The notes beneath the pieces were generated by a model that saw only the letters and a list, made by a program, of their open reading frames with translations, had not been told where the DNA came from and did not search any database. From positions 1 to 6,336 of the IMG/VR virus record IMGVR_UViG_3300045988_034117: DNA of 6,336 nucleotides. One strand, 5' to 3'. The stretch's first letter is position 1. Each line of letters opens with the position of its first letter. Below are positions 56-6,336 of the stretch, one piece after another. The stretch is from a virus. The translations under genes and the position numbers were made by a program.

Positions 56-1298
56 TCCTTATTATGGAGCTTTTAATTCGGGTAAAGATGCTATTAAGAT
101 TTCGGCTTATCCCTTTCGCGCTTACGAAGCCATTTATAATGCGTATATTCGTAATACTCGTAATAATCCGTTCTTGCTTAATGGTAAAAAGACCTATAAT
201 CGTTGGATAACTTCCGAAGAAGGTGGTGCGGATTCTTCTACCCCTACCGCTTTGATGTATGCTAATTGGCAGTCTGATGCTTATACTACTGCCTTGACTT
301 CTCCGCAGCAAGGTATTGCTCCTCTCGTAGGTTTGACTACCTATGAATCTGTGACTGTTAATGAAGCTGGTCATGAGGTTACTACCGTCAATACTGCTAT
401 TGTTGACGAGGACGGTAATGCATTTAAGGTAGATTTTGAGAGTAACGGTGAGGCTCTTAAGGGTGTCAATTATACTCCTCTTAAGACTGGTGAGGCTGTT
501 AATATGCAGTCTCTTGTGTCTCCTGTTACCTCGGGTATCTCTATTAATGATTTTCGTAATGTTAATGCTTACCAGCGTTATCTCGAGCTTAATCAATTCC
601 GCGGATTTAGTTACAAAGAAATTATCGAAGGTCGTTTTGATGTCAATGTGCGTTATGATGCCCTTAATATGCCCGAGTACCTTGGTGGTATTACTCGTGA
701 CATTATAGTTAACCCTATCACGCAGACTGTTGAAACTGTTAATACGGGTGCTTATGTTGGTTCTTTAGGCTCACAGGCCGGTCTCGCGACTTGTTTTGGT
801 AATAGTGATGGCTCGATTTCTGTTTTTTGCGATGAGGAGAGCGTTGTCATGGGTGTTATGTATGTTATGCCTATGCCTGTTTATGATTCTGTTTTGCCTA
901 AGTGGCTTACTTATCGTGAACGTCTTGATTCGTTTAATCCCGAGTTTGATCATATTGGCTACCAGCCTATTTATCTTCGTGAGCTTTCTCCTCTTCAAGC
1001 TTATTCTGAGGGTAAGTCTCTTGATACTGTATTTGGTTATCAGCGTCCCTGGTATGAGTATGTGCAAAAGTATGATAGGGCTCACGGTCTTTTCTTATCC
1101 TCGTTGCGTAATTTTATTATGTTCCGCTCTTTTGAAAATGCGCCTGAATTAGGTAAGGAATTTACCGTTATGCAGCCCGGTTCTGTCAATAACGTGTTTT
1201 CTGTTACCGAGGTTTCTGATAAGATCTTGGGTCAGATACATTTTGATTGTACTGCCCAATTGCCTATATCTCGTGTTGTTGTTCCTCGTTTGGAATAA
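1..1298 (+). CDS. VP1: Major capsid protein (Microviridae VP1 / F-like), C-terminal part. It continues from 5225..6336 across the circular junction. The first full codon in the window starts at nt 3.
   Basis: The frame is open from window position 1 to TAA at 1296-1298, in phase with the ORF leaving the window at 6336 (unit length 6281). It carries conserved microvirus capsid motifs: YPFRAYEAIYNAYIRN (nt 108-155) and ISINDFRNVNAYQRYLELNQFRGFSYKEIIEGRFDV. The TTG at 27 in the ORF track is an internal Leu codon, not a start. Confidence 0.93.
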   Translation, partial: FSLDFVRFLPATSDTPISPYYGAFNSGKDAIKISAYPFRAYEAIYNAYIRNTRNNPFLLNGKKTYNRWITSEEGGADSSTPTALMYANWQSDAYTTALTSPQQGIAPLVGLTTYESVTVNEAGHEVTTVNTAIVDEDGNAFKVDFESNGEALKGVNYTPLKTGEAVNMQSLVSPVTSGISINDFRNVNAYQRYLELNQFRGFSYKEIIEGRFDVNVRYDALNMPEYLGGITRDIIVNPITQTVETVNTGAYVGSLGSQAGLATCFGNSDGSISVFCDEESVVMGVMYVMPMPVYDSVLPKWLTYRERLDSFNPEFDHIGYQPIYLRELSPLQAYSEGKSLDTVFGYQRPWYEYVQKYDRAHGLFLSSLRNFIMFRSFENAPELGKEFTVMQPGSVNNVFSVTEVSDKILGQIHFDCTAQLPISRVVVPRLE

Positions 1299-1356: not shown

Positions 1357-1369
1357 AAAATTGTTTGTT

Positions 1370-1675
1370 ATGAAAGTGTTATCTCGTATTAATCCGTCTG
1401 AAACTTATCACCGTGTTTCTTGTCGGCGTGATTCCTGTGAGGATGTTGTAGTTTCCGGTTTGTCTATTACTCCCTCGGACATTGAACGCTTGGCTCGTCA
1501 AGGTGTTCCTGTTTCTGTTCCCAACGCTTCTAGCTTTTTTTCTGTTGATTCCGGTTTGGGTGTTCCTCCTGAATTGCGCGTTGATGCTGATAGAAATTCT
1601 CTTTGGGAGCTTTCTCAGGCCTCCAAGCGTCGTATTATGCAAGCTCGGCGTCGTGAAAAAGATTTATTAACTTAA
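1370..1675 (+). CDS. Hypothetical small protein (101 aa) with a basic C-terminal tail (KRRIMQARRREKD). It may be a scaffolding or DNA-binding accessory protein, but there is no recognisable family.
   Basis: ATG at 1370 (the track's TTG at 1361 is less likely). The NNT codon bias matches the capsid and Rep genes. The ORF is packed tightly between VP1 and VP2, with its stop 11 nt before the VP2 ATG. Confidence 0.6.
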   Translation: MKVLSRINPSETYHRVSCRRDSCEDVVVSGLSITPSDIERLARQGVPVSVPNASSFFSVDSGLGVPPELRVDADRNSLWELSQASKRRIMQARRREKDLLT

Positions 1676-3254: not shown

Positions 3255-3485
3255 ATGGAAAGAAGATATCAAGGTGTTCTAAAATTTAAACGTTTTTTTG
3301 GTGTTAAGGCTGGTCGCTCTGTTTGGAAAGAGTCTTTTGTTAAGACACATGTTTATACCGGTCCTTTACTTGCTTCTTCCGAGCTTTTTTGGCTTCGTGA
3401 TTATATTGTACCTGCTACTGGTGCTCGTGTTGTTGGCTATTATGTTGATACTTTTCTTGATATGGATGAAAATTTGCCTTTGTAA
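3255..3485 (+). CDS. Hypothetical protein (76 aa), immediately upstream of the Rep gene
   Basis: ATG at 3255. About two thirds of its codons end in T, like the confirmed phage genes and unlike the adjacent non-coding DNA. Its TAA (3483-3485) lies 2 nt before the VP4 ATG (TAATTATG), which suggests translational coupling. I recognise no homology. Confidence 0.5.
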   Translation: MERRYQGVLKFKRFFGVKAGRSVWKESFVKTHVYTGPLLASSELFWLRDYIVPATGARVVGYYVDTFLDMDENLPL

Positions 3486-3487
3486 TT

Positions 3488-5035
3488 ATGGATATTAAAT
3501 GCCTACATCCCGTCATTCTTATCAATCCCGAGGCCCGTAAAAAGGCCTTGGATTTTGACCGTATTTATATTCGCAACCATTGTCAATGCTGGATCATGGA
3601 GACCTTTGTCCTCGAGCCTTGGCAATACTCCCCTAAAAAATGGTCTATTAAGCTATCCGATATAGAGCATTGTTACCTCCTAAATTCTGAAACTGGTGAT
3701 ATGATCCCCCTTTATGTTGCTGTCCCTTGTGGCTCTTGCATTATTTGTCGTAAACGTAAAGCTAATGCTTTAGCTACTCGAGCTATTATGGAGACAGAGA
3801 CTACTGGTTCTGCACCTCTTTTTATTACACTTACATATAATCCCGAACATCTACCTAAAAACGAATTTGGTTATGAAACACTTCGCAAGTCTGATTTACA
3901 GTTGTTTTTTAAGCGTTTACGCTCTTTACTTGATAATCAATCTATCCCTCATTCGCTGCGCTATCTCGCGTGTGGCGAATATGGCTCTAAAACCAAAAGA
4001 CCTCATTATCATTTACTTTTGTGGGGTTTCCCTGTTGCACATTTTAAGGATATACTTAAGGTCCAATCGTTTATACAAAAAGCGTGGTCTTATTTCCAAA
4101 TTGACGAAAACGGTAAACGCATACCTTTCTATAGTAAATGTCGCACCTGTCCGCTCAATCAATATAAAGAACGTAACTCCTGCTCGGCTGTTGCGCATCT
4201 ATGCACTGGCACGCGCTTACGTTATCCGTCAGGAGCTTTCATTTATCGTAGGTATCCCATCGGGTCGATAAAGGTTCTCCCTGCGAACTCTGGTGCTCCT
4301 GCTTATATTACTAAATACATGGTAAAAGGTTCTAATGCTCCTCATTCTACCTGTGAGCCTCCATTTCGTACCGCTTCTAACCGAGGTGGTGGTATTGGTT
4401 CTGCTTATATTCGCGCTCGAAAGGATGAGATTTTAAATAATCCTTCACTCGAAGCTCTTCCAGTCGTTGATCGTGTCACTGGCTCCGGTAAGCTCTTTTA
4501 TATGCCTATAGATTCATGGGTAAAATCTACATTAATTCCTTCCCCTTCATCTTATTTAAAAACGAAAGAATATGAGACAGTTCGCGATTTTTGTTACACT
4601 TTTACATTATTTGAGCAATGTGCCCAACAGTTATATCGTCTTTGGCCTATGGATCGCTTTATCGACGGTGAGTTACAATACTATACGGATGTATTCTGCG
4701 ATCCCCTCAAGCGCGAAAAATGGGCTGAGGCTTATGCTCATGTTCGTGAATATATTTCTCCTGCTGTGCCTAATATTAATATCGGTAATTGGATGAAAGA
4801 TCGTGAGTATTTTAATGAATATATGTATGTTTTAACAGAGCGTTTGGATATTTTATCACGAAAAGTTTTGGAGATTGAAATAGATGATTCGTATTTTCGC
4901 AGTCGAGAACAGTATTTAAAAACCCGTGTTGAGATATTTAAAAAAAAGTATGGTAACAAAAAAACAAATCTTGGCGCTCTTGCGGAAAATATTGCCCTCT
5001 CCATTGAGCGTAATAAATGGCGAGAGTACTTTTAA
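3488..5035 (+). CDS. VP4: Rolling-circle replication initiation protein (Microviridae VP4 / phiX174 gpA superfamily, HUH endonuclease), 515 aa
   Basis: Motif I is FITLTY (3821-3838). Motif II (HUH) is PHYHLLLWG, with H-Y-H at 4004-4012. Motif III is YITKYMVK (4304-4327), with two Tyr spaced Y-x-x-x-Y as in phiX174 gpA. The N-terminal CLHP and the CGSCIICRKRK cysteine cluster are typical of VP4 proteins. Confidence 0.93.
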   Translation: MDIKCLHPVILINPEARKKALDFDRIYIRNHCQCWIMETFVLEPWQYSPKKWSIKLSDIEHCYLLNSETGDMIPLYVAVPCGSCIICRKRKANALATRAIMETETTGSAPLFITLTYNPEHLPKNEFGYETLRKSDLQLFFKRLRSLLDNQSIPHSLRYLACGEYGSKTKRPHYHLLLWGFPVAHFKDILKVQSFIQKAWSYFQIDENGKRIPFYSKCRTCPLNQYKERNSCSAVAHLCTGTRLRYPSGAFIYRRYPIGSIKVLPANSGAPAYITKYMVKGSNAPHSTCEPPFRTASNRGGGIGSAYIRARKDEILNNPSLEALPVVDRVTGSGKLFYMPIDSWVKSTLIPSPSSYLKTKEYETVRDFCYTFTLFEQCAQQLYRLWPMDRFIDGELQYYTDVFCDPLKREKWAEAYAHVREYISPAVPNINIGNWMKDREYFNEYMYVLTERLDILSRKVLEIEIDDSYFRSREQYLKTRVEIFKKKYGNKKTNLGALAENIALSIERNKWREYF

Positions 5036-5225
5036 TCTCGTAGTGTGTTACATTGTATATGCACTCGTTGTTATTGTTCTTTCGCTTTTGCTTTGGTTCT
5101 TGCCGTCGTGTACGGTAACTCTTTCTGTACAAAAGAATAATAATAACTCTACTCAATCGAGTGAGAGTAGTTCTTCTTCTTCTGTAGATTCTACGACTAT
5201 TTTTCAACCTCAAACATTTAAGTAA
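4950..5225 (+). CDS. Hypothetical small membrane protein (91 aa from ATG 4950). It has one predicted transmembrane helix and a Ser/Asn-rich tail, and is a candidate lysis or membrane-targeting protein.
   Basis: The ORF fills the whole VP4-VP1 gap (5036-5224) without a stop and ends in TAATG overlapping the VP1 start. The hydrophobic stretch FNLVVCYIVYALVVIVLSLLLWFLP is encoded at about 5031-5105, downstream of the VP4 stop apart from its first codon, which spans it, so it is not an overlapping-frame artefact. About 36 of 63 codons after the VP4 stop end in T. The start is uncertain (ATG 4950 inside VP4, or GTG 5043). Confidence 0.45.
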   Translation: MVTKKQILALLRKILPSPLSVINGESTFNLVVCYIVYALVVIVLSLLLWFLPSCTVTLSVQKNNNNSTQSSESSSSSSVDSTTIFQPQTFK

Positions 5226-6336
5226 TGGCTAACGTATTTAACAAAATTGGTGACGTCAAAAATGATGTCAAGCGTAATAGTTTTGACTGGTCGCATGATA
5301 ACAATTTTACCACAGATTTAGGTCGTATCACCCCCGTTTTTACGGAGTTGGTGCCTCCTAATAGTTCTATCCGTATTAAGCCCGAGTTTGGTCTTAGGTT
5401 CATGCCAATGATGTTCCCAATCCAAACTAGAATGAAAGCTTATTTGTCTTTTTTTAAGGTTCCTTTGCGTACTCTTTGGAAGGACTATATGGATTTTATC
5501 AGTAGCGAAAACACAGAGGAATTTGTGCCTCCTTATATGAATTTTAGGGCGTCTGATATTCAGGAAGGTGGTGCGTTAAAACCCTCTGGTCTTGGTGATT
5601 ACTTTGGTATTCCTTCTCTTGAAATGACTTTTGGTTATTTGCCTCAAGGTAGTATTTCTTCTGTTCAGGATGCTCCTTCATCAATGGCAACTCCTGAATC
5701 AAATATGAGTGTTGAGTTTAATGCTGGTTTGCAGGAGAATTACTATAAAGGTGGTAATCTTACTTTGAAATTAAGTCAATATCATATTTCCAAGTTGGAG
5801 CCCGCTTATTCTTCTGACGGTGCTTGTGTTGCGTTTCCTGTTCCTTTGCCTAGTTCTCGCGGTCATTGGCGTTATCAGTCTTTAGGCTCTTTCAATCTTT
5901 CTTATACCGGCGATTCTCACGCAGAGCCTTTTGTTGCTGTTATGCGAGGCGTTGCTAGAATTGGTCTTGCCAATCCTTCGGTTTCTTCCTTTGATCCTAT
6001 GGCGTATCTTAAAAAATGTCATACTGCCCGTATTATTTATTCTACATCTCCTACTCCCGTTGAAGATGAGGGTAATGAGCAACCTTTTACTTCTATTGGT
6101 ATTGATTCCTTCAACAATCCTTATTCTGTTGATGAAGCCTCTCAAACTATGACGGTTACTTTTGAGGTTAGGGTCACTTTTTCTAATTCTTCTAATAAGC
6201 CTCGGCTCTCTTTTGGTTTTGTTTGTCCTCCCGTTTCACCGCTTGTTAAAGCTGATCGTTCTACCTTGCTTAAGCTCGTAAATTTTTCTCTTGATTTCGT
6301 TCGCTTCTTGCCTGCTACTTCTGATACTCCTATATC
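5225..6336 (+). CDS. VP1: Major capsid protein (VP1 / F-like), N-terminal part. It runs off the window end and wraps to 1..1298. The joined product is 784 aa.
   Basis: ATG at 5225 overlaps the upstream TAA (TAATG). I translated 5225-6336 by hand and found no stop. The N-terminus MANVFNKIGDVKNDVKRNSFDWSHDNNFTTDLGRITPVF...FFKVPLRTLW matches the usual microvirus capsid N-terminal pattern (R-x-x-F-D-x-S-H, then FFxVPxRxLW). An in-frame TAA at 5219-5221 rules out a longer N-terminus. Confidence 0.9.
   Translation, partial: MANVFNKIGDVKNDVKRNSFDWSHDNNFTTDLGRITPVFTELVPPNSSIRIKPEFGLRFMPMMFPIQTRMKAYLSFFKVPLRTLWKDYMDFISSENTEEFVPPYMNFRASDIQEGGALKPSGLGDYFGIPSLEMTFGYLPQGSISSVQDAPSSMATPESNMSVEFNAGLQENYYKGGNLTLKLSQYHISKLEPAYSSDGACVAFPVPLPSSRGHWRYQSLGSFNLSYTGDSHAEPFVAVMRGVARIGLANPSVSSFDPMAYLKKCHTARIIYSTSPTPVEDEGNEQPFTSIGIDSFNNPYSVDEASQTMTVTFEVRVTFSNSSNKPRLSFGFVCPPVSPLVKADRSTLLKLVNFSLDFVRFLPATSDTPI
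6282..6336. repeat. Terminal overlap copy 2 (identical to 1-55)
   Basis: Exact 55-nt identity. The length is typical of a k=55 de Bruijn assembly overlap on a circular contig. Confidence 0.97.

What the first reader, a model, noticed from the sequence alone, without database searches (positions are those of the whole stretch)
4950..5225. Small single-pass membrane protein filling the Rep-capsid gap: candidate lysis gene
As far as I know, no dedicated lysis gene has been characterised for non-phiX microviruses (phiX174 uses the embedded E protein, an MraY inhibitor). This ORF has the expected architecture: a short basic N-terminus (MVTKKQILALLRK), one strongly hydrophobic helix (FNLVVCYIVYALVVIVLSLLLWFLP) and a polar low-complexity tail (NNNNSTQSSESSSSSSVDSTT). 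It occupies the entire 189-nt gap and is coupled to the capsid start by TAATG. Its 5' end overlaps the end of VP4 in the +1 frame. The transmembrane segment lies beyond the VP4 stop, apart from its first codon, which spans it, so frame-shadow effects do not explain it.
Basis: partly seen in the sequence, partly recalled or inferred. Interest (0 to 1): 0.6.

Follow-up and report, generated by a model that had tools for sequence, protein, structure and literature searches.

The report
Tiny lipoprotein gene, candidate microvirus lysis factor
The 91-codon gene between the replication and capsid genes of this gut single-stranded-DNA phage is real and conserved. It most likely makes a tiny exported, lipid-anchored and probably sugar-tagged peptide. 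That peptide is the best, still untested, candidate for how these phages burst their Bacteroides-type hosts.

Summary
The ORF at 4950-5225 is there as described. It is intact in 10 relatives about 89% identical in this stretch. dN/dS is 0.10, and synonymous change in Rep is suppressed where the genes overlap.

It is not best read as a plain membrane protein with a low-complexity tail. It belongs to a large unannotated family: 114 cluster representatives, mostly 60-90 aa. A poorly conserved hydrophobic signal ends in an invariant Cys in a lipobox context. A conserved peptide of about 37 residues follows (C-T-x-S-L-S-V-x-K-N-N ... V-D-S-T). It carries the Bacteroidota O-glycosylation motif D-S/T-[AILVMT] in 87 of 98 members. 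So the "tail" is the conserved, probably functional part.

In 43 of 51 near-complete related genomes the gene lies directly before the capsid gene. It was absent from all 8 relatives whose Rep-to-capsid slot holds an M15 peptidase. That supports a lysis role but does not prove it. Superinfection exclusion remains a rival.

No homology to phiX174 E or to colicin lysis proteins was found.

This window's clade is a variant. It has a 53-residue pre-Cys region, its N-terminus is overprinted on Rep, and Pro sits at lipobox position -2.

Earlier agents of this scan reported the same family on other genomes.

The parts
4950..5225 (+). Whole ORF: 91 codons plus the TAA stop. It encodes the precursor of a small lipoprotein-family protein.
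   Evidence: intact in 10 relatives, dN/dS 0.098; family HMM hit at E = 5e-19
4940..4949 (+). A-rich tract (AAAAAAAAGT) just upstream of the ATG. It is a possible Shine-Dalgarno-less initiation context of the Bacteroidota type, and it also encodes Rep KKK-Y.
   Evidence: sequence; the role is inferred from general knowledge of Bacteroidota translation initiation and was not tested
4950..5035 (+). N-terminal extension (residues 1-28, MVTKKQILALLRKIL...), overprinted on the last 28 codons of Rep in the +1 frame. Predicted to be a cytoplasmic amphipathic helix.
   Evidence: Rep third-position variability 5/28 here against 261/487 elsewhere, p = 0.0003; AF2 helix 4-14 with first-block pLDDT 86; absent from most family members
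5034..5099 (+). Hydrophobic signal or anchor helix (about residues 29-50).
   Evidence: KD19 maximum 3.05; AF2 helix 30-53 with pLDDT about 90; sequence poorly conserved across the family
5100..5111 (+). Lipobox-like L51-P52-S53-C54. Cys54 is invariant in the family.
   Evidence: invariant Cys; 64/114 representatives match the strict PROSITE-type lipobox. This clade's Pro at -2 does not match it.
5109..5222 (+). Predicted mature peptide of 38 residues; 25 of 38 are S/T/N/Q.
5109..5141 (+). Conserved N-terminal motif of the mature peptide, C-T-V-T-L-S-V-Q-K-N-N.
   Evidence: C54 invariant in all three alignments; T55 invariant in A2 and A6; K62 invariant in A6, nearly invariant in A2 and A9
5187..5195 (+). 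D80-S81-T82, the Bacteroidota O-glycosylation motif D-S/T-[AILVMT].
   Evidence: D80 and S81 invariant; motif present in 87/98 members against a mean of 15 in shuffles; motif definition from PMC12871550
5223..5227 (+). TAATG stop/start overlap with the capsid gene (translational coupling).
   Evidence: In all 43 lipoprotein-positive genomes the stop is separated from the capsid ATG by a few nucleotides at most (ATGA, TAATG, TAAATG, TAATATG, TAATTATG).
3488..5035 (+). Rep (VP4) gene. Its 3' end is shared with the small ORF.
5225..6336 (+). Capsid (VP1) gene, 5' part. It continues at 56..1298 because the record has a 55-nt terminal overlap. The joined product is 784 aa.

Best explanation
The ORF encodes the precursor of a tiny envelope-targeted lipoprotein. 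Shown here: it is a selected protein-coding gene. It belongs to a large family restricted to microviruses. The family shares an invariant Cys in a lipobox context, a conserved mature peptide of about 37 residues, and a conserved Bacteroidota O-glycosylation motif. The gene sits translationally coupled just upstream of the capsid gene. Inferred: the protein is inserted N-in/C-out by Sec. It is then diacylated and cleaved at Cys54 by Lgt and LspA. In this clade that step may be slow or incomplete, because Pro is at -2 and the pre-Cys region is 53 residues long. The peptide would be O-glycosylated at Ser81 in the periplasm. Lacking acidic residues at +2 to +5, it would stay on the periplasmic side of a membrane. 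Most likely function, also inferred: it is the phage's lysis effector. It would be a lipo(glyco)peptide that compromises the envelope from the periplasmic side, standing in for the M15 peptidase that related microviruses carry in the same slot. In how it works it would resemble colicin-release lipoproteins, but it is not their homologue. The target is unknown.
For: Real gene. Family: 114 representatives at E <= 1e-3 among 1.84 billion proteins. Of these, 64/114 match the strict lipobox pattern and 80/114 have [AGS]-C-T, including textbook signals such as MKKRINYVVLSLVAIIAAS|CT.... The Cys is invariant in three independent alignments. Between divergent pairs the mature peptide is 47% identical against 25% for the signal. 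The O-glycosylation motif occurs in 87/98 members at a fixed position, against a shuffle mean of 15 and maximum of 28. Only 1/98 has D/E at +2 to +5 (motif from PMC12871550). Hosts are Bacteroides, shown by prophage copies. Position: 43/51 near-complete relatives carry the gene, always directly before VP1. Lysis link: no peptidase or lysin domain was found in the window's other ORFs. 0/43 lipoprotein genomes have an M15 hit, and 0/8 peptidase genomes have a credible lipoprotein hit. The peptidase lies in the same Rep-to-capsid slot. Fisher p = 9e-7 without phylogenetic correction.
Against: There is no experiment of any kind. The window's own lipobox (L-P-S-C) fails the PROSITE pattern at -2, and its Cys is at residue 54, far beyond the usual 15-35. 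The exclusivity test rests on 8 peptidase genomes and one tblastn query, and it is not corrected for shared ancestry. High conservation of the peptide is atypical of known single-gene lysis proteins, which evolve fast. The gene is retained in prophages, which also fits an exclusion function. AF2 gives no fold for the mature part. There is no homology to any known lysis protein.
Confidence: 0.5

Rival explanations
1. It is a superinfection-exclusion or receptor-masking lipoprotein, working like T5 Llp or the Cor proteins. On this reading the exported lipopeptide blocks the phage receptor or DNA entry. That would protect infected or lysogenic cells, and would protect progeny from inactivation by debris.
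For: Small phage lipoproteins with this role are well established (general knowledge). The gene is kept in Bacteroides prophages. Three of 10 members give weak hits to phrog_8545 'Sie-like' (E = 0.002-0.02), covering the N-terminal signal region only.
Against: The gene is near-universal in the clade and tightly coupled to the capsid gene, which is unusual for an accessory gene. The peptide is as conserved as the capsid across phages whose capsids are only about 46% identical, whereas a receptor blocker should track receptor changes. Its mutual exclusivity with a peptidase in the same slot has no explanation under this model. The PHROG hits are sub-threshold.
Confidence: 0.2
2. The protein stays uncleaved as a single-pass N-in/C-out membrane protein, and its transmembrane helix is the lytic part. 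It would either inhibit a membrane step of wall synthesis, as phiX174 E does, or form a lesion as MS2 L or a holin does.
For: In this clade Pro at -2 breaks the canonical lipobox. The hydrophobic run of about 24 residues is of transmembrane length, and the N-terminal extension is under selection. In relatives the slot holds TM-only micropeptides of 27-50 aa, some of them 'smalltalk' NF033879 members above cut-off. Some lipoprotein signals weakly resemble smalltalk.
Against: The helix sequence is the least conserved part, while the Cys and the tail are the most conserved. Many members have short textbook lipoprotein signals. There is no match to the phiX174 E family or to any lysis family.
Confidence: 0.12
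3. It is an envelope-modifying or accessory factor that is not itself lytic. Examples would be a partner for export of another factor, a modulator of vesiculation, or an upstream ORF that mainly serves to couple capsid translation.
For: Tight stop/start coupling with VP1 is seen in all 43 genomes. The mature peptide is predicted to be disordered.
Against: Strong amino-acid-level purifying selection and conserved motifs argue for a protein function beyond coupling. In other microviruses the same gene is coupled to Rep instead of VP1.
Confidence: 0.13
4. It is a chance ORF or a frame shadow of Rep and has no protein product.
For: Spurious ORFs of similar length are common in this genome.
Against: dN/dS of 0.098 outside the overlap, family-wide conservation, and 114 cluster representatives.
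Confidence: 0.01

Closest known systems
Colicin lysis proteins, also called bacteriocin release proteins (Pfam Lysis_col; 'colicin release lysis protein' of ColE-type plasmids)
   Same: Both are very small lipoprotein precursors (45-50 aa against 60-91 aa) with a short, S/T-rich mature peptide of about 28-38 residues after the lipobox Cys. Both are encoded by a minimal replicon that must get a product out of a Gram-negative cell. In this clade the long, selected signal region recalls the functional stable signal peptide of BRPs (general knowledge).
   Different: There is no homology. No Pfam hit was found at E <= 1 in 15 members. hhalign aligns only 20 columns of signal plus Cys, with probability 28%. 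The host phylum differs (Bacteroidota). This family has a conserved O-glycosylation motif. BRPs act through OmpLA activation in Enterobacteria, and nothing of that kind is shown here.
phiX174 protein E, the only characterised microvirus lysis protein
   Same: Both are 91-aa proteins of a microvirus. Both are partly or wholly overprinted on another gene, contain one hydrophobic helix, and come from a genome with no muralytic enzyme.
   Different: By my knowledge, E has its functional transmembrane domain at the extreme N-terminus and a dispensable C-terminus. Here the helix is the variable part and the exported C-terminal peptide is conserved. There is no sequence match. This protein has a lipobox Cys and a glycosylation motif.
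'Smalltalk' micropeptides of Bacteroidales (NCBIfam NF033879; related to Pfam DUF6486)
   Same: They occupy the same slot just upstream of VP1 in related microviruses. They occur alone (L055, 41 bits) or right after an M15 peptidase (L166 at 26.3 bits, L168 at 30.7 bits). Signals of some family members weakly resemble them (E = 0.001-0.02).
   Different: They are 28-31 aa, with the helix only and no mature peptide. The window's protein gives no hit. Their function is unknown.
Phage superinfection-exclusion lipoproteins (T5 Llp, Cor of HK022/phi80/T1)
   Same: They are small phage-encoded exported lipoproteins acting on the host envelope.
   Different: No sequence relation was detected beyond weak signal-region hits to a PHROG 'Sie-like' family. 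Those proteins are accessory and lineage-specific, whereas this gene is near-universal in its clade.
Rz1-type o-spanins
   Same: They are small outer-membrane lipoproteins of phage lysis cassettes, often encoded by overlapping genes.
   Different: They need an inner-membrane partner (Rz) and an endolysin. No such genes are found here, and there was no Pfam or PHROG match.

Membership tests
Bacterial lipoprotein precursors (signal peptidase II substrates; PROSITE PS51257-type rule) | Lipobox [LIVMFWSTAG]2-[LIVMFYSTAGCQ]-[AGS]-C after an uncharged hydrophobic stretch | tested here: inconclusive
   The window has F-L-P-S-C. It passes at -4, -3 and -1 and fails at -2 (Pro). 64/114 family representatives match the full pattern, and -1 is S, A or G in 81/98.
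Bacterial lipoprotein precursors (signal peptidase II substrates; PROSITE PS51257-type rule) | Conserved Cys at the end of the hydrophobic region | tested here: met
   C54 is invariant in alignments A2, A6 and A9.
Bacterial lipoprotein precursors (signal peptidase II substrates; PROSITE PS51257-type rule) | Cys within about residues 15-35 and K/R near the N-terminus | tested here: not met
   K4 and K5 are present, but the Cys is at residue 54 in this clade. The family median pre-Cys length is 30.
Bacterial lipoprotein precursors (signal peptidase II substrates; PROSITE PS51257-type rule) | Actual diacylglyceryl modification and LspA cleavage | not testable with these tools
   This needs lipid labelling, globomycin treatment or mass spectrometry.
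Colicin lysis / bacteriocin release proteins (Pfam Lysis_col) | Sequence match of the mature peptide (C-Q-A-N-Y-I-R-D-V-Q-G-G-T...) | tested here: not met
   No Pfam hit at E <= 1. hhalign against 4 real colicin lysis proteins gave probability 28%, with only the signal and Cys aligned.
phiX174 E-type lysis proteins | Sequence match to the E family and a conserved N-terminal transmembrane domain as the functional element | tested here: not met
   No Pfam or PHROG hit. The helix is internal (residues 29-53) and is the least conserved part.
Smalltalk micropeptides (NCBIfam NF033879) | Score above the curated cut-off of 24.7 bits | tested here: not met
   The window protein gives no hit. Other family members score 14-19 bits. 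Slot neighbours L055, L166 and L168 score 26-41 bits.
Bacteroidota O-glycoproteins | D-S/T-[A/I/L/V/M/T] motif in a non-cytoplasmic segment | tested here: met
   D80-S81-T82 lies in the exported tail. The motif occurs in 87/98 members against a shuffle mean of 15. Glycosylation itself was not tested.
Superinfection-exclusion lipoproteins (Llp, Cor, PHROG 8545) | Significant sequence match | tested here: not met
   Only E = 0.002-0.02 for 3/10 members, over the signal region. The window protein gives no hit.
Spanins (Rz/Rz1) | A partner inner-membrane spanin and an endolysin in the same genome | tested here: not met
   No such ORFs or domains in the window.

The most novel reading that the evidence does not exclude
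A lipid-anchored, O-glycosylated peptide of about 37 residues would be a new kind of single-gene lysis effector for Bacteroidota. It would act from the periplasmic face on a conserved envelope target and would be functionally interchangeable with an M15 endopeptidase plus micro-TM peptide cassette. One speculative mechanism uses the invariant glycosylation motif. The highly expressed peptide might engage or jam the O-glycosylation or lipoprotein-processing pathway. That would tie up undecaprenyl-phosphate-linked intermediates or LspA/Lgt, and wall synthesis would collapse.
Probability: 0.4. Interest if true: 0.8.

Novelty: new variant of a known kind. Interest (0 to 1): 0.6.

Why it matters
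How microviruses other than the phiX174 group lyse their hosts is an open question. Papers read here name phiX174 E as the only elucidated microvirus lysis mechanism and otherwise only propose M15 peptidases (PMC3394797, PMC9239249). Microviruses of this Bacteroides-associated (Alpavirinae-type) group were sampled here mainly from gut and faecal material. This gene gives a concrete, easily testable candidate in most of the relatives sampled here. If it is lytic, it would point to a new weak spot in the Bacteroidota envelope. It would also be the first lipoprotein-type single-gene lysis protein. No Pfam, PHROG or NCBIfam model covers the family, so these genes are currently left unannotated or called 'hypothetical'.

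Tried and rejected
- **Family libraries.** Scans of the window protein and of 13-15 family members against Pfam, PHROGs and NCBIfam gave only sub-threshold hits driven by the signal region.
- **Solved structures.** A profile search of PDB sequences found nothing meaningful.
- **Structure prediction.** AF2 with a 48-sequence alignment gave confident helices for residues 4-14 and 30-53 and no structure for the mature peptide. No fold search was therefore run.
- **Colicin lysis proteins.** hhalign showed no homology.
- **Related loci.** The search for related loci failed on the 15-member alignment. The porcine and chicken sub-alignments found nothing in IMG/VR. The Rep-alignment scan returned mostly distant gokushoviruses.
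- **tblastn with the small protein.** It found only 3 GenBank records, because the low-complexity filter masks much of the query.
- **Cellular homologues.** A sample of 401 Bacteroidales genomes gave one prophage and one doubtful hit inside a 557-aa ORF, so no cellular family was found.
- **Peptidase relatives.** A single-protein scan for peptidase relatives in IMG/VR gave only 2 loci. GenBank records were used instead.
- **Slot peptides.** The 31-aa peptide of L150 and the 41-aa ORF of L054 are not smalltalk members.
- **Alternative starts.** A shorter precursor starting at an internal GTG/TTG was rejected as the main reading. The ATG at 4950 is kept in all 11 genomes and the overlap shows dual-coding constraint. 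It is not excluded.
Full report
**What the window is.** It is a complete circular microvirus genome. Rep (VP4) lies at 3488-5035 (Pfam REP_ORF2-G2P, phrog_942). The capsid gene (VP1) starts at 5225 and wraps to 1298 (Phage_F, phrog_514). The pilot protein (VP2) lies at 1687-2838. A few small ORFs have no domain hits. The record is an IMG/VR virus contig with terminal repeats. The joined capsid product is 784 aa, the same length as in the closest GenBank relative.

**Checking the observation.**
The ATG is at 4950, the stop at 5223-5225 overlaps the capsid ATG (TAATG), and the Rep stop ends at 5035. The first 86 nt overlap Rep in the +1 frame.
- The hydrophobic segment is strong: the Kyte-Doolittle 19-residue maximum is 3.05 at residues 30-48. 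The N-terminus has net charge +3, which suggests N-in/C-out.
- ORF length is not evidence here, because the genome has many spurious ORFs of similar size.
- Two dog-faeces GenBank genomes and eight IMG/VR genomes, about 89% identical in this stretch, all keep the frame, the ATG and the TAATG junction.
- In the 187 nt outside the overlap, 55 columns vary and 36 of them are third codon positions. The tail stays identical at the protein level through Ser codon switches.
- NG86 dN/dS is 0.098, the same as Rep at 0.097.
- Inside the overlap, only 5 of 28 Rep third positions vary, against 261 of 487 elsewhere (p = 0.0003). No other 84-nt window of Rep is that quiet.
It supports translation from 4950, although another constraint on that stretch cannot be excluded.

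**What it is.**
- More distant relatives (Rep 33-51% identical) from dog, pig, chicken, hare and rodent samples all have a small ORF ending at the capsid start. In each, a hydrophobic segment is followed by [G/A/S]-C-T and a conserved polar peptide.
- One relative has a textbook lipoprotein signal: MTKPNRLRLTFALALCTVLVTA|CTVTLSVQK.
- A profile built from window and IMG/VR members found 114 cluster representatives at E <= 1e-3 among 1.84 billion proteins. Most are 60-90 aa.
- Of these, 64 match a strict PROSITE-type lipobox pattern and 80 have [AGS]-C-T. Several are unmistakable signal-peptidase-II substrates.
- The Cys is invariant in three alignments, as are D80 and S81. K62 is nearly so.
- Between genomes whose Rep proteins are 20-35% identical, the mature peptide is 47% identical. 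The capsid is 46% identical and the last 22 residues of the signal only 25%.
- So the hydrophobic helix behaves like a signal or anchor, and the 'low-complexity tail' is the conserved, probably functional part.

**The glycosylation motif.** The invariant D-S is followed by T, A, I, V or L, which is the O-glycosylation motif of Bacteroidota. That motif is used only on non-cytoplasmic proteins (PMC12871550). It occurs in 87 of 98 full-length representatives, at a fixed place about 26 residues after the Cys. Shuffled peptides give a mean of 15 and a maximum of 28. Only 1 of 98 has an acidic residue at +2 to +5. By my knowledge of the Bacteroidota lipoprotein export signal, this suggests the peptide is not surface-exposed (inference).

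**Hosts.** Prophage copies of the gene lie next to VP1, VP2 and Rep homologues in four Bacteroides genomes, one of them an isolate chromosome. A sample of 401 Bacteroidales genomes gave no cellular family. I did not test that.

**Structure.** AF2 with 48 sequences gives helices at 4-14, 18-23 and 30-53, and no structure for the mature peptide (pLDDT 50-70).

**Genomic position and neighbours.**
- I drew related genomes by capsid similarity, independently of the small gene, and added the GenBank relatives.
- Of 51 near-complete records, 43 have the gene. In all 43 it lies directly before VP1, with its stop overlapping, abutting or lying a few nucleotides before the capsid ATG.
- Two more records, which are the same hare-faeces genome, have a divergent member with VYSC|T and a D-S-L motif.
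- One record is cut at the relevant place.
- In the remaining five records the slot holds something else. One (L150) has an M15_3 peptidase (E = 9e-14) followed by a 31-aa hydrophobic peptide. Four have tiny TM peptides of 31-50 aa, one of which is a 'smalltalk' NF033879 member at 41 bits.
- In another microvirus group the same gene sits just upstream of Rep, again often with a TAATG overlap. So the gene is a portable module.

**The lysis argument.**
- The window has no peptidase, amidase or lysozyme domain.
- tblastn with the L150 peptidase found no hit in any lipoprotein-bearing genome held.
- The same query found M15 peptidases in many GenBank microviruses of about 6 kb. There the gene lies between Rep and the capsid gene.
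- I fetched seven of these. With L150 that makes eight peptidase genomes. None has a credible lipoprotein hit; the only hit, at E = 0.006, lies inside the pilot gene.
- In seven of the eight, a 27-34-aa hydrophobic peptide lies between the peptidase and the capsid gene. In four (L150, L166, L168, L171) it starts at or over the peptidase stop. Two of these peptides are smalltalk members above cut-off.
- Signals of some lipoprotein members weakly resemble smalltalk (E = 0.001-0.02).
- The pattern is therefore either 'peptidase plus micro-TM peptide' or 'TM signal fused to the lipopeptide', never both. The table is 0/43 against 8/13, Fisher p = 9e-7.
- This is what functional replacement predicts, and it makes lysis the best-supported role. 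The caveats are real. The peptidase sample is small, only one tblastn query was used, and related genomes are not independent observations.

**Comparison with known systems.**
- No curated family covers the protein.
- Against four real colicin lysis proteins fetched from plasmids, only the signal and the Cys align, with probability 28%. It may work like a bacteriocin release protein, but it is not one.
- It is not an E-type protein. There is no match, the helix is internal, and the helix is the variable part.
- Weak hits of three members to a PHROG 'Sie-like' family keep superinfection exclusion alive as the main rival. That model does not explain the near-universal presence, the conservation or the exclusivity with the peptidase.
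- Literature searches found no paper describing a lipoprotein or lipobox in Microviridae. Kirchberger et al. 2022 mention unassigned small proteins of about 65 aa that link microvirus families. These may include this family.

**What is particular to this window.** Its clade, together with MG945256, has the longest precursor: 53 residues before the Cys, against a median of 30. A 21-28-residue amphipathic N-terminal extension is overprinted on Rep. The hydrophobic run is of transmembrane length, about 24 residues. Pro sits at lipobox position -2. Processing may therefore be slow or incomplete here, and the selected signal region may have a role of its own. I put lipidation at about 0.7-0.75 for this protein and about 0.9 for the family.

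**Verdict.** The gene is a new variant of a known kind (a small phage lipoprotein acting on the envelope) and belongs to an undescribed family. Earlier agents of this scan reached similar readings on other genomes. I count those as leads, not evidence, and re-tested the key claims here. Interest is 0.6.

Noticed in passing
L048 (MG945256) 1400-2270: The Rep-capsid junction of this GenBank relative contains direct and inverted duplications of the small ORF and of the capsid start. Copies lie at 1400-1717, at 1733-2044 and on the reverse strand at 1642-1926. This is probably an amplification or assembly chimera.
   Followed up: partly
P0007 (JGI protein, 155 aa): This is a chimeric protein. An internal capsid fragment (...FTSIGIDSFNN) is fused to the lipoprotein tail (NSTQSSESSSSSSVDSTTIFQPQTYK). 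It looks like a junction at the Asn-codon run, from either a defective genome or an assembly artefact.
   Followed up: no
L065-L087 (IMG/VR microviruses): In another microvirus group the same lipoprotein gene sits immediately upstream of Rep rather than of the capsid gene, again often with a TAATG overlap. The gene seems to move as a module.
   Followed up: partly
L166 6179-6265; L168 6217-6306; L055 about 6129-6221: 'Smalltalk' micropeptides (NCBIfam NF033879, so far a hypothetical family of Bacteroidales) are encoded by microviruses directly before the capsid gene. In two cases they overlap the stop of an M15 peptidase gene, like a miniature holin-endolysin pair. Two of them contain F-L-G-C, itself lipobox-like.
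   Followed up: partly
L167 5854-5937; L169 5840-5923; L171 5653-5739; L170 5864-5968: A second type of 27-34-aa peptide (MKKI(V/I)DFFRA(I/L)VW(L/I)LC..FNRHNDPR) lies between the M15 peptidase and the capsid gene. It directly follows the peptidase only in L171, and lies 150-260 nt downstream in the other three. It matches no family.
   Followed up: no
window 4942-4964: Two A-runs flank the ATG of the small ORF. It could equally be the A-rich initiation context of the small ORF. This was not tested.
   Followed up: no
G360:C1:1980202-1980366 and 1983702-1983866 (L162, L163): Two copies, 3.5 kb apart, of a 557-aa ORF in a Bacteroidales genome match the lipoprotein profile at E = 3.6e-7. It is probably a compositional match to an S/T-rich segment.
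   Followed up: no
window 1361-1675 and 3255-3485: The 104-aa ORF after the capsid gene has homologues at the same place in Bacteroides prophages (about 31% identity), consistent with the predicted VP3-like scaffold. The 76-aa ORF before Rep has no family hit.
   Followed up: partly
L165 (PQ007099) 1-2373: In this GenBank record the capsid CDS is annotated as joined from two pieces ('spliced'). That is odd for a phage and may hide a frameshift or an assembly error.
   Followed up: no
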